A stretch of 20,000 nt of DNA from an uncultured virus (IMG/VR IMGVR_UViG_3300043438_001944) (IMGVR_UViG_3300043438_001944:51692-71691), one strand, 5' to 3'; shown: positions 699 to 12,080, numbered from the stretch's first letter. Notes: generated from the sequence alone by a model not told the origin. Translations and numbers: made by a program.

Positions 699-770
699 GT
701 TGATGTAGCTTAATGGTGAAGCTTTCGGCTGTTAACCGAACGACTATAGGTTCGAGTCCTATCATCAACG
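699..770 (+). tRNA. trnN: tRNA-Asn(GTT)
   Basis: Acceptor GTTGATG/CATCAAC; anticodon arm TTCGG-CTGTTAA-CCGAA; T arm ATAGG-TTCGAGT-CCTAT; G73. Confidence 0.93.
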
Positions 771-775
771 CAAAC

Positions 776-2611: not shown

Positions 2612-2685
2612 GGATTGTTGGTGAAGTTGGTTATCATGCCACCCTGTCACGGTGGAGTTCACGGGTTCGAGTCCCGTACAGTCCG
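2612..2685 (+). tRNA. trnD: tRNA-Asp(GTC)
   Basis: Acceptor GGATTGT/ACAGTCC; anticodon arm CCACC-CTGTCAC-GGTGG; T arm ACGGG-TTCGAGT-CCCGT; G73. Confidence 0.95.
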
Positions 2686-2687
2686 CA

Positions 2688-7462: not shown

Positions 7463-7658
7463 CTATTTAAAGTATGGGACTCCGATGGAAGTCCACAAGA
7501 AGAGCAGAAGTTTTTCATCCATCATTTATTATCATGGAGACCGCTAAATCGAGTTAGTGAAAATCTACATTCTCCGTGATAATTTCATTCAAAACATCTA
7601 CCGGTGGTTCCACACTAAGGTTATGTGAGGTTTCGGCTGATAAAAGGATGTTATATAT

Positions 7659-7806
7659 TGTAGTGTGACGAAACTGGCAAACGTGCCCTCCTGTCTCGGG
7701 GGCGGTGAAAAAGAAATAGGTAAGTAATATGGGGTAGACCACCAGCCGGCCGGCAAAGTGTTACTTACTGAATCTCATCTTGGTGGTTCGAGTCCATCCG
7801 CTACAG
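7659..7806 (+). tRNA. tRNA-Asp(GTC)-like RNA with a 79-nt structured variable-arm insertion
   Basis: Acceptor TGTAGTG/CGCTACA plus G73; D arm ACG-AAACTGGCAAA-CGT; anticodon arm CCCTC-CTGTCTC-GGGGG; T arm GGTGG-TTCGAGT-CCATC; insert 7703-7781. Confidence 0.75.
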
Positions 7807-7822
7807 CTAATTGTAAATTAAT

Positions 7823-8209
7823 ATGGAAAAACCTGTAATAGTAAACGTACATGAATGTCCCGAATGTAAAATCCCAAAAGGATGGGGAGAAGAAATAATA
7901 ATTTGTAATCACGAATTATATTGTGGTAAATTATTATGTTTTAAACAAGGTGCAAAATTTTCTATGCACTATCACATGATTAAAGATGAAACGTGGTATG
8001 TTAATGAAGGTGAATTCATTTATAGATGGATTGATACAGAAACCGCAGAAGTAATTGAACAAAAATTAAATGTTGGTGACACGGTGAGACAAATGCCAGG
8101 ACAACCACATCAATTGGAGGCACTTACTGATGGAGTTGTTTTTGAAGTATCAACACAACACTTTGATTCTGATTCATATAGAGTATGGAAGGGGGACTCT
8201 CAAAAATGA
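7823..8209 (+). CDS. Cupin-domain protein (sugar isomerase/mannose-6-phosphate isomerase-like), 128 aa
   Basis: PKGWGEE, FSMHYHMIKDETWYV, PGQPHQL and FEVST cupin motifs. Confidence 0.85.
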   Translation: MEKPVIVNVHECPECKIPKGWGEEIIICNHELYCGKLLCFKQGAKFSMHYHMIKDETWYVNEGEFIYRWIDTETAEVIEQKLNVGDTVRQMPGQPHQLEALTDGVVFEVSTQHFDSDSYRVWKGDSQK

Positions 8210-8592
8210 AAATTTGGGTAAACGGAACATTCGATGTGATGCACATTGGACATATTAAATTACTTGAACATGCAAGTAGTTTAGGTATTGTTAGAGTTGG
8301 TTTAGATACTGACGAAAGAATAAAAGAAAAAAAAGGTTTGAAGAGACCTATTAACACATTACAAGATAGAATTGATTTTATGAAATCAATTAAGTATGTT
8401 GATAGTGTAGTTAGTTTTAGTTCAAATGAAGAACTGGAAAATAGAATAGAAGAATGGGATGCCGATATTATGGTTATTGGTGATGATTATAAATATCACG
8501 AAATAATTGGTAGTCATTTAGTTGATAGAGTTTCATTCTTTGATAAAATAAAAAATAAATCGACAACAAAAATTTTAAGTTCATTTTTATAA
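8206..8592 (+). CDS. Cytidylyltransferase-family nucleotidyltransferase (RfaE domain II/TagD-like), 128 aa
   Basis: NGTFDVMHIGH (HIGH motif), GLDTD, RPIN, GDDY, C-terminal STTKI; start revised to ATG 8206 (ATGA overlap). Confidence 0.9.
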   Translation: MKIWVNGTFDVMHIGHIKLLEHASSLGIVRVGLDTDERIKEKKGLKRPINTLQDRIDFMKSIKYVDSVVSFSSNEELENRIEEWDADIMVIGDDYKYHEIIGSHLVDRVSFFDKIKNKSTTKILSSFL

Positions 8593-8959: not shown

Positions 8960-9762
8960 ATTGGCCGCCTATGGTCAACAAAATAAACCATGAAAGTGGG
9001 ATAAAGTGATTTCATTTGGTTGAATGAGATTGCGGTTTTAGAAATAGAACTCGAGTAGGCAAGCAAGATATCATTGAACCTTAAGTACTGAGGGTAACAC
9101 TGTAGGGAAAGTGGTTTAGTGACCAAGCGATGCAGGTCGTTTGGTTGAGTTCGGAAGAACAATAAGAATAACTTGTAGAATTATTACAAGAAGTAGGACC
9201 TCCAATCTTACAATTGTGTGATTCAATATAATGGGAATTTTAAAACCGAAAGGTATGGTAGTGTACAAGTGGTGTTGTTACTATCCTTAATTAGACCCTA
9301 CCAAGGGTTTAGTTTTGAAGAGGTCCAAAAATATGGAGGCAGGGATGTCTCAGAGAGTAGTTTAGTATCGAGTCGCTCAAAAGGTGGCTTGGCTGGTCGA
9401 CGAACCACTACTTTCCTAATCTGCAAACCAAAAACTTTGTTAATTCAGGTTTAACAACTCATAATTAAAAAGAAAAAGTGTTCGTCAGTCATTGGAGACA
9501 GGTGGCTACTTAGTCGTGAGGGGTTCACGGCCATAAAGGGACTCAATCCCAATATGATTTTTAAGAAAGTTCTCTAAACCCATAAGGTTTAATTGGGATG
9601 GCAATCTCGAAGAGTAATAAGTATTAAAAGAGTATCTGATGACTTAAGGATTGGTTAATCTAATTGACCGCCGCTGAGGATTACTACTCAAAAGGTAGTG
9701 GAAAAGAATGGGAAACAATAATCCGTTCAAAAGATTCTCGTTAAGACATGTATTCTCAGTGT
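8960..9762 (+). ncRNA. Large structured ncRNA (~800 nt), GOLLD-like
   Basis: ORF-poor GC-richer stretch between a promoter and a terminator; many G.U-containing hairpins on + strand; long-range pairings 9103-9116/9403-9418 and 9673-9680/9753-9760; size and tRNA-rich phage context fit GOLLD; family not verified by a covariance model. Confidence 0.7.
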
Positions 9763-11643: not shown

Positions 11644-12035
11644 GGGGGTGCCTGGCATTGATTTCAGGTATCGGGAATAAGTGGCACGTAGTCAGACTTC
11701 ATCTATGACTTAAATCTACGGTGGAAAATTTCAAACGGCAACGTTTACAAAAACATGGAAATTGCAGGTTTACTTGCAACTTCCAACGTAGCAGTAGCCT
11801 AAGGCGAAACTACAATCGGGTCGACTGGCATATAACCTAGGAACAGAAGCCTTCAAGGTGTAACACCACTTAGAGTGTTGGAGCAAATCTGACGGCTCTT
11901 GAAAATCCGGTTAGGAACAGTATTGATGGTTTCCTGTAATTAACCTTCTATTTGTCTGTTGAGAACCAATAGAATAAACGTGTAGTCATTTATTGTTGAA
12001 CAGGAAAGACACGGGTTCGAGTCCCGTCACCTCCA
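11644..12035 (+). ncRNA. ssrA: tmRNA (one-piece)
   Basis: 5' GGGGGTG pairs with 3' CACCTCC with G3.U70 and A73; GAC-ACGGG-TTCGAGT-CCCGT T arm; tag frame 11737-11802 (GNVYKNMEIAGLLATSNVAVA*); 392 nt. Confidence 0.93.
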
Positions 12036-12080
12036 CAAAGCTTCTTAGCCGTAGCTTTTTTGATTAGTAAAGTAAATAGG

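What the first reader, a model, noticed from the sequence alone, without database searches (positions are those of the whole stretch)
7659..7806. tRNA-Asp-like RNA with a 79-nt variable-arm domain ending in a perfect palindrome
Seen: a complete cloverleaf (7-bp acceptor, class II-like 3-bp D stem, GTC anticodon, C38, G73, normal T arm), but the variable region is 79 nt. It contains GGTGA/TCATC (7704-7708/7775-7779), a 12-bp stem (7719-7730/7758-7769) and an apical region with the self-complementary 10-mer GCCGGCCGGC (7745-7754). Position 37 is T rather than a purine. A normal tRNA-Asp(GTC) is present separately at 2612. Established: GUC, C38 and G73 are AspRS identity elements, and natural variable arms are much shorter. 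Inference: this may be an aminoacylatable tRNA-like scaffold used outside normal decoding (nuclease decoy, Asp donor, dimerising RNA) or a tRNA with an unusual intervening sequence. Standard tRNA scanners may miss it.
Basis: partly seen in the sequence, partly recalled or inferred. Interest (0 to 1): 0.85.

Follow-up and report, generated by a model that had tools for sequence, protein, structure and literature searches.

The report
Non-decoding tRNA for asparagine synthesis
This oversized tRNA-like gene belongs to an uncatalogued RNA family of Bacteroidota bacteria and their large phages, and it most likely works not as a codon reader but as a reusable carrier on which aspartate is turned into asparagine, in place of an asparagine-synthetase gene.

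Summary
The 148-nt cloverleaf is real and missed by ARAGORN and Rfam. It belongs to a family of at least 280 distinct RNAs in lake phages, metagenomes and Bacteroidota chromosomes. The long arm covaries, and a homologue stays unspliced in metatranscriptome contigs.

The family keeps the AspRS determinants (GUC 165, C38 161, G73 168 of 168). It adds two tRNA-Asn features: U1-A72 for GatCAB, and a T stem that repels EF-Tu from Asp-tRNA. U33 and purine 37 are often lost.

On chromosomes it faces an asnC orthologue in 28 of 41 loci, the place asnA holds in E. coli. In a 151-genome Bacteroidia sample all 28 carriers have GatB and none has true AsnB. Of 20 genomes with GatB and GlnRS, 15 carry it and 4 others have unusually long GatB genes, GatB-AspRS fusions in the 3 read.

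Best reading (0.6): a non-decoding carrier for asparagine synthesis. The palindrome is a phage-specific, probably dimerising addition (54 of 64 versus 2 of 38). No biochemistry was done. No earlier scan note described it.

The parts
7659..7806 (+). Gene for the tRNA-Asp/Asn-chimeric RNA (148 nt to the discriminator; CCA not encoded)
   Evidence: covariance model R1 scores it 135 bits against at most 46 for the window's ordinary tRNAs (the window sequence was in the training set)
7659..7665 (+). Acceptor stem 5' strand; U1-A72 (GatCAB determinant) and G2-C71; pairs with 7799-7805
   Evidence: U1-A72 in 160 of 168, A1-U72 in 8, never G-C; G2-C71 in 167 of 168; role from PMC1635274 passages
7666..7685 (+). 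Class II (tRNA-Leu-like) D arm with A15; site of extra hairpin inserts in many phage copies
   Evidence: A15 in 280 of 280; D-loop inserts over 6 nt in 45 of 115 viral and 0 of 68 chromosomal copies
7686..7702 (+). Anticodon arm; loop C32 U33 G34 U35 C36 U37 C38
   Evidence: With the loop left free in the search: U35-C36 168 of 168, GUC 165, C38 161, U33 only 116, purine 37 in 1; G37 in 5 of 24 further chromosomal copies
7704..7779 (+). Long variable arm: P1 7704-7707/7776-7779, 4-nt bulge, P2 7712-7714/7773-7775, internal loop AATA/GAA (elsewhere RATAAA/CTAA), P3 7719-7730/7758-7769
7731..7743 (+). Apical conserved motif GGKNGACCAC (small bulged hairpin)
   Evidence: present in 103 of 115 viral, 59 of 97 metagenomic and 61 of 68 chromosomal copies
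7745..7754 (+). Self-complementary 10-mer; candidate dimerisation (kissing) site, a phage trait
   Evidence: palindrome of 6 nt or more in 54 of 64 distinct viral segments (shuffle mean 13, maximum 25 in 1000 shuffles), 13 different central hexamers; 2 of 38 chromosomal segments
7782..7798 (+). T arm with weak EF-Tu signature: G49-C65, G50.U64, U51-A63
   Evidence: predicted -8.1 kcal/mol against -11.0 for bacterial tRNA-Asp (PMC3239215 Tables 1-2)
7806..7806 (+). Discriminator G73
   Evidence: 132 of 132 and 168 of 168; not required by either parser
2612..2686 (+). Canonical decoding tRNA-Asp(GTC) of the same phage (G1-C72, U33, A37, G51-C63); internal control
699..771 (+). Phage tRNA-Asn with G1-C72: a poor GatCAB substrate, so it needs free asparagine and AsnRS
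   Evidence: 7 of 8 distinct tRNA-Asn genes near phage copies start with G

Best explanation
The RNA is a dedicated, non-decoding carrier for asparagine biosynthesis, probably derived from a tRNA-Leu-type body. Step 1 (inferred): the host's ordinary, discriminating AspRS charges it with aspartate through GUC, C38, G73 and G2-C71. Step 2 (inferred): GatCAB amidates the aspartate through U1-A72, which real tRNA-Asp lacks. Step 3 (inferred): a tRNA-Asn-type weak T stem keeps the Asp form off EF-Tu, and the altered anticodon loop and bulky arm keep the RNA out of decoding, so Asp codons are not misread as Asn. Step 4 (least supported): asparagine leaves the RNA by hydrolysis or an unidentified deacylase and is recharged on tRNA-Asn by AsnRS. 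In bacteria an AsnC orthologue facing the gene probably switches it on when asparagine is low, as AsnC does for asnA in E. coli. Large phages of these hosts carry the RNA without AsnC, most simply to raise asparagine supply during infection, and have added a self-complementary tip that probably dimerises it. Shown here: structure, conservation pattern, distribution, gene neighbourhood, and presence of an unspliced homologue in RNA libraries. Not shown: any charging, amidation, release, regulation or dimerisation.
For: (1) Chimeric identity set. An engineered tRNA-Asp with U1-A72 and a shortened D loop is amidated almost like tRNA-Asn, and the anticodon does not matter to GatCAB (PMC1635274 passages). 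G49-C65 with A51-U63 are the pairs that keep Asp-tRNA-Asn off EF-Tu (PMC1904265 section 13); the family has G49-C65 in 267 of 280, and among the 233 with a regular T stem pair 51-63 is A-U (174), U-A (57) or G.U (2), never G-C. (2) Head-to-head with an asnC-like gene in 13 of 21 and 15 of 20 chromosomal loci, while the gene beyond asnC varies. The one regulator tested has E. coli AsnC as best PDB hit (E 8e-31, next 1e-20); E. coli asnC faces asnA and activates it unless asparagine is present (PMC4482635 passage). (3) Phylum sample of 151 genomes: all 16 carriers have GatB and AsnRS and lack AsnA and true AsnB. Class sample of 151: 28 of 112 GatB genomes and 0 of 39 without GatB carry it; 0 of 19 AsnB genomes. 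(4) Of 20 genomes with GatB and GlnRS, where GatCAB is not needed for Gln, 15 carry the RNA; 4 have 1110-1120-aa GatB genes, and the 3 read are GatB-AspRS fusions with the RDHG motif; 1 is fragmentary. Of 92 with GatB but no GlnRS, 13 carry it. (5) AspRS of 14 of 15 carriers read has the short, Lys-bearing loop also seen in 3 genomes without GatB, and none has the His (signature recalled). (6) Two carriers have a tRNA-Asn with G1-C72 plus U20a, a combination that abolished amidation in vitro. Two carriers of 6-7 Mb (G156, G196), and G001, show no AsnA, AsnB or broad AsnB-like hit.
Against: No biochemical test was run. The RNA has a class II D loop with a position 20a, and many phage copies have D-loop hairpins, while an extra D-loop base is a GatCAB antideterminant. 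G1-C72, which the RNA lacks, helps E. coli AspRS (PMC9976931 section 29). Broad AsnB-like amidotransferases (TIGR01536) occur in 25 of 28 carriers, and PMC4206432 Table S1 scores Spirosoma, Chitinophaga and Haliscomenobacter as asnB-positive with U1-A72 tRNA-Asn. 79 genomes with GatB, no GlnRS and no RNA (77 of them without true AsnB) must get asparagine another way; four examined have the same AspRS type and tRNA-Asn as carriers. 11 of 13 carrier tRNA-Asn genes keep U1-A72. Carrier G128 has an AspRS loop with Gly and a short-D-loop tRNA-Asn. A few members have UUC, CUC or AUC anticodons, and 5 of 24 have U33 with G37. About 40% of scorable members have a predicted EF-Tu affinity equal to tRNA-Asn (-9.4), so the Asn form may bind EF-Tu. 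No release enzyme was found beside the gene. The genome counts are not phylogenetically independent, and six carriers are in both samples.
Confidence: 0.6

Rival explanations
1. Regulatory or sensing RNA: it binds or is charged by AspRS and GatCAB, but serves as a sponge or Asp/Asn status sensor in an AsnC circuit and yields no net asparagine.
For: The same identity elements and the asnC link; a large conserved arm suited to protein binding; no release factor found; anticodon variants tolerated.
Against: It does not explain why GatCAB is kept beside AsnRS and GlnRS almost only where this RNA or a GatB-AspRS fusion is present, nor the lack of AsnA and true AsnB in carriers.
Confidence: 0.15
2. 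Aminoacyl donor: Asp- or Asn-RNA feeds a non-ribosomal transferase (lipid, cell-wall or protein modification), like the non-proteinogenic tRNA-Gly of staphylococci.
For: Weak EF-Tu signature and loss of decoding features; the extended arm could recruit a transferase.
Against: No transferase or other recurring gene beside the RNA except asnC in the 41 loci inspected; an asparagine-sensing regulator points to amino-acid supply.
Confidence: 0.1
3. An unusual but decoding tRNA: an Asp isoacceptor, or a deliberate mistranslator charged with Asn, or with Ser (G73, long arm, G2-C71, U3-A70), like allo-tRNAs with GUC anticodons.
For: Complete cloverleaf; U33 in 116 of 168; U33 with G37 in 5 of 24 copies; allo-tRNAs with GUC exist (PMC5389517 passages).
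Against: C33, A33 or G33 in 52 of 168 and a pyrimidine at 37 in 167 of 168; T stem 1.3-3 kcal/mol weaker than tRNA-Asp; engineered long-arm tRNAs have only marginal activity and a bulge in the V stem blocks SerRS (PMC7590224 passages); one member has no arm at all; a canonical tRNA-Asp is present in this phage.
Confidence: 0.07
4. Decoy or resistant substitute against anticodon nucleases in phage-host conflict.
For: Sits in a phage tRNA cluster on a contig with an RNA ligase and an adjacent AAA_33-family (kinase-like) gene; altered anticodon loop; phage-specific palindromes and D-loop inserts.
Against: The family is a chromosomal gene of Bacteroidota, single-copy in 5 of 5 genomes tested, tied to asnC and GatB; 17 of 46 phage loci of 12 kb or more have no ARAGORN tRNA near it. 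It could still be a secondary role in phages.
Confidence: 0.05
5. A tRNA-Asp gene with an intervening sequence that is spliced out, or a decaying tRNA with a recent insertion.
For: Arm length varies widely; one contig at depth 3.2 skips 70 nt.
Against: Contigs at depth up to 3521 span the whole arm; the one skip is marked 'between: not known' and fits a short-armed homologue; arm helices covary; removing the arm would not restore U33, purine 37, G1-C72 or G51-C63.
Confidence: 0.03

Closest known systems
Indirect asparagine pathway: non-discriminating AspRS + GatCAB on tRNA-Asn (Thermus, Deinococcus, Bdellovibrio, S. aureus; PMC4206432, PMC1635274, PMC1904265)
   Same: Same inferred chemistry and enzymes; same U1-A72 and G49-C65/A51-U63 signals; same genomic situation (AsnRS, often GlnRS, GatCAB, no true asparagine synthetase).
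   Different: The relaxed specificity would lie in the RNA, not in the synthetase. The carrier has an Asp anticodon, is not tRNA-Asn and appears unable to decode, so the product would have to be released.
Non-proteinogenic tRNA-Gly of Staphylococcus (passage in PMC8007984; section title in PMC1904265)
   Same: A tRNA specialised for metabolism, charged by the normal synthetase and kept off EF-Tu by its T stem.
   Different: That tRNA is of normal size and donates unchanged glycine to the cell wall; this one has a class II body, an arm of up to 124 nt and determinants for an amidotransferase.
Allo-tRNAs and selC* tRNAs (PMC5389517 section 13 and passages)
   Same: Long variable arm, G73, GUC among the anticodons, found in bacteria and phages.
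   Different: Allo-tRNAs have 8/4 or 9/3 acceptor branches and a long tRNA-Sec-like D stem, in Clostridia, Proteobacteria and Acidobacteria. This family is 7/5 with a 3-bp D stem, a bulged arm several times longer, in Bacteroidota.
Canonical bacterial tRNA-Asp(GUC)
   Same: G34, U35, C36, C38, G73, G2-C71.
   Different: U1-A72 for G1-C72; no G51-C63; U37; U33 not conserved; class II D arm; long arm.
E. coli asnC-asnA divergon
   Same: An AsnC orthologue transcribed head-to-head with its partner across a short spacer.
   Different: The partner is a non-coding RNA, not the enzyme AsnA.

Membership tests
Canonical tRNA-Asp | AspRS determinants G34, U35, C36, C38, G73, G2-C71 | tested here: met
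   window sequence; 161-168 of 168 per position; determinants from PMC9976931 section 29
Canonical tRNA-Asp | G1-C72 | tested here: not met
   0 of 280
Canonical tRNA-Asp | Decoding loop with U33 and purine 37 (recalled rule) | tested here: not met
   window has U33 but U37; family U33 116 of 168, purine 37 1 of 168; G37 in 5 of 24 others
Canonical tRNA-Asp | Tight EF-Tu T stem (mean -11.0 kcal/mol) and short variable loop | tested here: not met
   -8.0 to -9.7 in 232 scorable of 280; 239 of 280 have arms of 60 nt or more
GatCAB substrate (tRNA-Asn type) | U1-A72 | tested here: met
   272 of 280; the other 8 are A1-U72
GatCAB substrate (tRNA-Asn type) | No extra D-loop base 20a | tested here: inconclusive
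   The class II D loop has a 20a position; how GatB reads a class II elbow could not be tested
GatCAB substrate (tRNA-Asn type) | Host encodes GatCAB | tested here: met
   GatB in 16 of 16 and 28 of 28 carriers; GatA and GatC were not searched
GatCAB substrate (tRNA-Asn type) | Aspartylation and amidation shown biochemically | not testable with these tools
   needs purified enzymes
Allo-tRNA / selC* | 8/4 or 9/3 acceptor branch; long D stem with tetraloop | tested here: not met
   7/5 branch and 3-bp D stem; 47 of 280 have one extra T-stem base
tRNA-Ser / SerRS substrate | G73 and an uninterrupted long variable stem | tested here: not met
   G73 present, but a 4-nt bulge follows 4 bp; a bulge blocked SerRS in PMC7590224; one member lacks the arm
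tRNA-Leu | A73 (recalled) and a Leu anticodon | tested here: not met
   G73 throughout; only the body is Leu-like (A15, U48; the best non-member hits of model R1 read were tRNA-Leu)
Intron-containing tRNA | Spliced product; group I or bulge-helix-bulge intron features | tested here: not met
   unspliced contigs of a homologue; no Rfam intron hit; raw reads were not available
Any Rfam 15 family | Match at gathering score | tested here: not met
   no hit on the window RNA or on long-armed members; only short-armed members score as generic tRNA (about 41 bits)

The most novel reading that the evidence does not exclude
A large branch of Bacteroidota has replaced the enzyme asparagine synthetase by a non-coding RNA: a purpose-built, non-decoding tRNA, under the asparagine sensor AsnC, that shuttles aspartate from a discriminating AspRS to GatCAB and releases free asparagine. 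Its long arm scaffolds the enzymes, and phages carry a self-dimerising version as an RNA-only auxiliary metabolic gene.
Probability: 0.5. Interest if true: 0.93.

Novelty: new variant of a known kind. Interest (0 to 1): 0.86.

Why it matters
It offers a testable answer to why many Bacteroidota keep GatCAB although they have AsnRS and GlnRS, a situation counted but left unexplained for Bacteroidetes in PMC4206432 (section 16). If true, it is a tRNA-like molecule that serves only as a cofactor of amino-acid synthesis, and a natural version of the Asp/Asn chimera once built in vitro (PMC1635274). It would also be a phage auxiliary metabolic gene made of RNA. Whatever the function, a conserved RNA family found in 28 of 151 Bacteroidia genomes and in many lake phages escapes ARAGORN and Rfam, or is mislabelled tRNA-Asp when its arm is short. 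Natural arms of up to 124 nt on a tRNA body bear on tRNA engineering.

Tried and rejected
Single-sequence folding was not significant (z -1.0) and misfolds the T arm. BLAST of the window RNA against GenBank phages gave only T-arm scraps; a phage homologue against phages and a chromosomal homologue against plasmids gave nothing, so no annotated record of a member was seen. One pattern had a register error and found 6 loci that were not used. Pattern hits were filtered by a cloverleaf parser: 62 of 295 matches were dropped (no 5-bp anticodon stem, or no T arm found, including real members with bulged T stems or cut ends) and 24 of 244. Anticodon-loop counts were not used, because the pattern fixed the loop. 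Pairing of GACCACC with the T stem was considered and rejected, since it does not hold in chromosomal copies. Likeness of the arm to Y RNA, SRP, T-box, kink-turn or tetraloop-receptor motifs was considered from memory; there was no Rfam support and none is claimed. The internal loop resembles a loop E/sarcin-ricin motif only by recall. AsnC-like hits in three genomes without the RNA were not next to asnA or asnB, so no direct gene swap at that locus was shown. This AsnC was not found at E 1e-25 in 4 of 4 RNA-less GatB genomes tested nor in 2 of 5 RNA-less genomes without GatB. No GatB, YqeY or AsnRS family hit among 51 proteins of the rest of the contig or 21 window proteins, and no AsnC motif in 105 phage loci. 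The sigma-70 promoter scan was at chance level. The absence of RNA-library cover on the flanks is not used as evidence for transcript ends. G010's AspRS was translated in the wrong frame and ignored. Ten paper searches returned no description of this RNA; subscription journals are mostly outside the library, and supplements of RNA-motif surveys were not searched.

Full report
Observation. The window is the end of a 71.7-kb, 32% GC contig of a large T4-like phage: Gp23 capsid, portal, terminase and RNA ligase families are on it. It carries 11 tRNAs, tmRNA and GOLLD. ARAGORN at default settings and Rfam at E<=1 miss the gene.

A family. This gave 132 distinct sequences and 168 from a pattern that left the anticodon loop free: 280 together, 115 viral, 97 metagenomic and 68 chromosomal. 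The parsed chromosomal members among the 80 named rows are all Bacteroidota: Spirosoma, Larkinella, Aquirufa, Arcicella, Saprospiraceae and others. The variable region is 21-124 nt, median 79; one further member has only 7 nt. A covariance model separates members from ordinary tRNAs. It found 16 carriers among 151 genomes of the phylum and 28 among 151 of the class Bacteroidia, some with two copies. Only 21 candidates per genome were scored, so misses are possible; a deeper search of 5 negatives found none.

Structure. On 65 distinct sequences aligned to the model, 97.8% of cells pair, 23 of 33 pairs change on both sides, and shifted controls fall to 41-55% (the alignment leans towards its own structure). 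An alignment-free count on 225 distinct long arms gives a 4-bp basal helix, a 4-nt bulge, a 3-bp helix, a conserved internal loop and a helix of about 9 bp. The tip carries GGKNGACCAC. In phage copies the next 16 nt hold a palindrome of at least 6 nt in 54 of 64 distinct segments (shuffle mean 13, maximum 25), with 13 different central hexamers; chromosomal copies have it in 2 of 38. Self-complementarity, not sequence, is therefore kept, and only in phages. Dimerisation is an inference.

Expression. Four metatranscriptome runs, found with and laid on an Aquirufa locus, give contigs that pile on the gene and span the whole arm, one at depth 3521. One contig at depth 3.2 skips 70 nt with unknown filling. 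These are contigs of several organisms; they show neither strand nor ends, and DNA carry-over is not excluded. The window's own copy was not tested. They argue against splicing.

Identity elements. With the loop free: U35-C36 in 168 of 168, GUC 165, C38 161, G73 168, G2-C71 167. These are the AspRS determinants (PMC9976931 section 29 read). U33 is kept in only 116 and a purine at 37 in 1; 5 of 24 further chromosomal copies have G37. The first pair is U-A in 272 and A-U in 8 of 280, never G-C. U1-A72 is the GatCAB determinant, and a tRNA-Asp given U1-A72 and a shorter D loop is amidated nearly like tRNA-Asn (PMC1635274 passages). G49-C65 occurs in 267 of 280. Pair 51-63 is A-U, U-A or G.U in all 233 regular T stems; the other 47 have an extra base there. 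G49-C65 with A51-U63 keeps Asp-tRNA-Asn off EF-Tu (PMC1904265 abstract and section 13). The published additive model (PMC3239215 passages and tables) gives -8.0 to -9.7 kcal/mol for 232 scorable members, against -11.0 for tRNA-Asp and -9.4 for tRNA-Asn. The window RNA scores -8.1 and the phage's own tRNA-Asp -10.8 (worked by hand from that table). The molecule thus reads as Asp to the synthetase and as Asn to GatCAB and EF-Tu.

Neighbourhood. On chromosomes the gene faces an Lrp/AsnC regulator in 13 of 21 and 15 of 20 loci (13 of the 15 by motif, 2 by eye), and the gene beyond the regulator varies. One such protein was tested: Pfam AsnC, best PDB hit E. coli AsnC. In E. coli asnC faces asnA and activates it unless asparagine is present (PMC4482635 passages). 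No AsnC motif was found in 105 phage loci (of 113 matches, 105 were in the files).

Gene content. Phylum sample: 16 of 16 carriers have GatB and AsnRS, none has AsnA or true AsnB, and 14 have GlnRS; GatB is common there (126 of 151), so this alone is weak. Class sample: carriers are 28 of 112 GatB-positive, 0 of 39 GatB-negative and 0 of 19 AsnB-positive genomes. Among 20 genomes with GatB and GlnRS, 15 are carriers. Four have GatB frames of 1110-1120 aa; the 3 read are GatB-AspRS fusions with RDHG, recalled as the non-discriminating signature. The last is fragmentary and lacks even a tRNA-Asn match. Among 92 with GatB but no GlnRS, 13 are carriers. Fisher p is 2e-7 for that contrast and 5e-10 for GatB within GlnRS genomes, inflated by kinship. 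G228, flagged unpublished, is one RNA-negative, GatB-positive row of these tallies. AspRS of 14 of 15 carriers read has the short Lys-bearing loop shared with 3 GatB-less genomes; most RNA-less GatB genomes of other classes have a longer loop. All 13 tRNA-Asn genes read from Bacteroidia carriers (phage-like tRNA arrays set aside) have U20a and 2 have G1-C72; U20a is also present in 6 of 6 RNA-less Bacteroidia read, so it is a lineage trait.

Against. Broad AsnB-like proteins occur in 136 of 151 genomes and 25 of 28 carriers; their function is unknown, and PMC4206432 (abstract, section 16, passages and five rows of Table S1 seen) counts them as asnB. Seventy-nine GatB-positive, GlnRS-negative genomes manage without the RNA; AsnA was not searched in the class sample beyond 5 carriers. 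The class II D loop, and hairpin inserts in 45 of 115 viral copies, may hinder GatB (PMC2811023 passages). A few members have UUC, CUC or AUC anticodons. The release step has no candidate enzyme.

Mechanism. Most likely (0.6), AspRS charges the RNA, GatCAB amidates it, it stays out of decoding, and asparagine is released for AsnRS; AsnC probably controls it in bacteria. Phages would carry it for asparagine supply: Asn is 7% of residues in 52 proteins of this contig, and 7 of 8 distinct tRNA-Asn genes near phage copies start with G, so they would need free asparagine. Thirty of 46 phage loci of 12 kb or more have fewer than five tRNAs nearby, so the RNA is not just a passenger of tRNA arrays. 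Rivals: sensor or sponge (0.15), aminoacyl donor (0.1), decoding or mistranslating tRNA (0.07), nuclease decoy (0.05), intron or decay (0.03).

Comparison and novelty. It works like the indirect asparagine pathway and like non-proteinogenic tRNAs, but fails membership tests for tRNA-Asp, tRNA-Ser, tRNA-Leu, allo-tRNA (PMC5389517 section 13 and passages) and intron-bearing tRNA. It is not in Rfam 15. Ten searches of the open-access library found no description; passages of PMC7590224, PMC8007984 and PMC8450103 were also read without a mention. Closed journals, database labels and unseen supplements may hold it. I file it as a new variant of a known kind, because the enzymes and chemistry are known. 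If the carrier role is proven, an RNA standing in for an enzyme gene would be close to a new category.

Noticed in passing
window 7474-7521 (+): Small conserved element between tRNA-Met and the finding: a stem GGGACT/AGTCC with two-sided changes, whose loop GATGGA can pair with TCCATC beyond an inserted hairpin (pseudoknot-like). Present in 8 of 8 related phage loci aligned; no Rfam hit.
   Followed up: partly
window 7535-7655 (+): Second conserved non-coding block directly upstream of the finding, kept in 6 of 8 relatives aligned and absent or partial in 2; contains CTAA and CTGATAAA words like those of the variable-arm internal loop.
   Followed up: no
window 9353-9762 (+): Complete GOLLD RNA, 299 bits.
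   Followed up: no
window 11644-12038 (+): Phage tmRNA with tag ATSNVAVA.
   Followed up: no
L297-L300, 30-130 nt downstream of the RNA: Conserved trailer TTTTAGTTTGTTGATGAAGTGTAA followed by a terminator-like hairpin in Spirosoma, Larkinella, Arcicella and Aquirufa; no credible Rfam hit in L297 or L300. Possibly a separate small RNA.
   Followed up: no
L008, L011, L013, L014, L027, L034, L043, L047, L049, directly downstream of the RNA: Another conserved non-coding element follows the RNA in one group of phages (starts aggttRactggaat, includes ggttagaaatgccag); no Rfam hit in the loci scanned.
   Followed up: no
L001, L006, L059, L063, L065 and others (D loop): 44 distinct hairpin inserts in the D loop of viral and metagenomic copies; many are palindromic, and one group repeats the anticodon-loop word TGTCTC.
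   Followed up: partly
L617:2762-6121, L618:2438-5767, L619:197-3538: GatB-AspRS fusion proteins of 1110-1120 aa next to gatA in genomes that lack the RNA.
   Followed up: partly
L620:1839-1914 (-): [quoted passage not shown]
   Followed up: partly
L314 (two copies), L400, L424, L440: Members with UUC, CUC or AUC in place of GUC, all with short arms.
   Followed up: no
L674 (G257) and L681 (G196): Chromosomal arrays of phage-like tRNA genes with a second tRNA-Asn starting with G.
   Followed up: no
window 7823-8592 (+): Cupin and cytidylyltransferase-like genes directly downstream; with the glycosyltransferase and methyltransferase genes of the window they suggest a sugar-modification kit unrelated to the RNA.
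   Followed up: no
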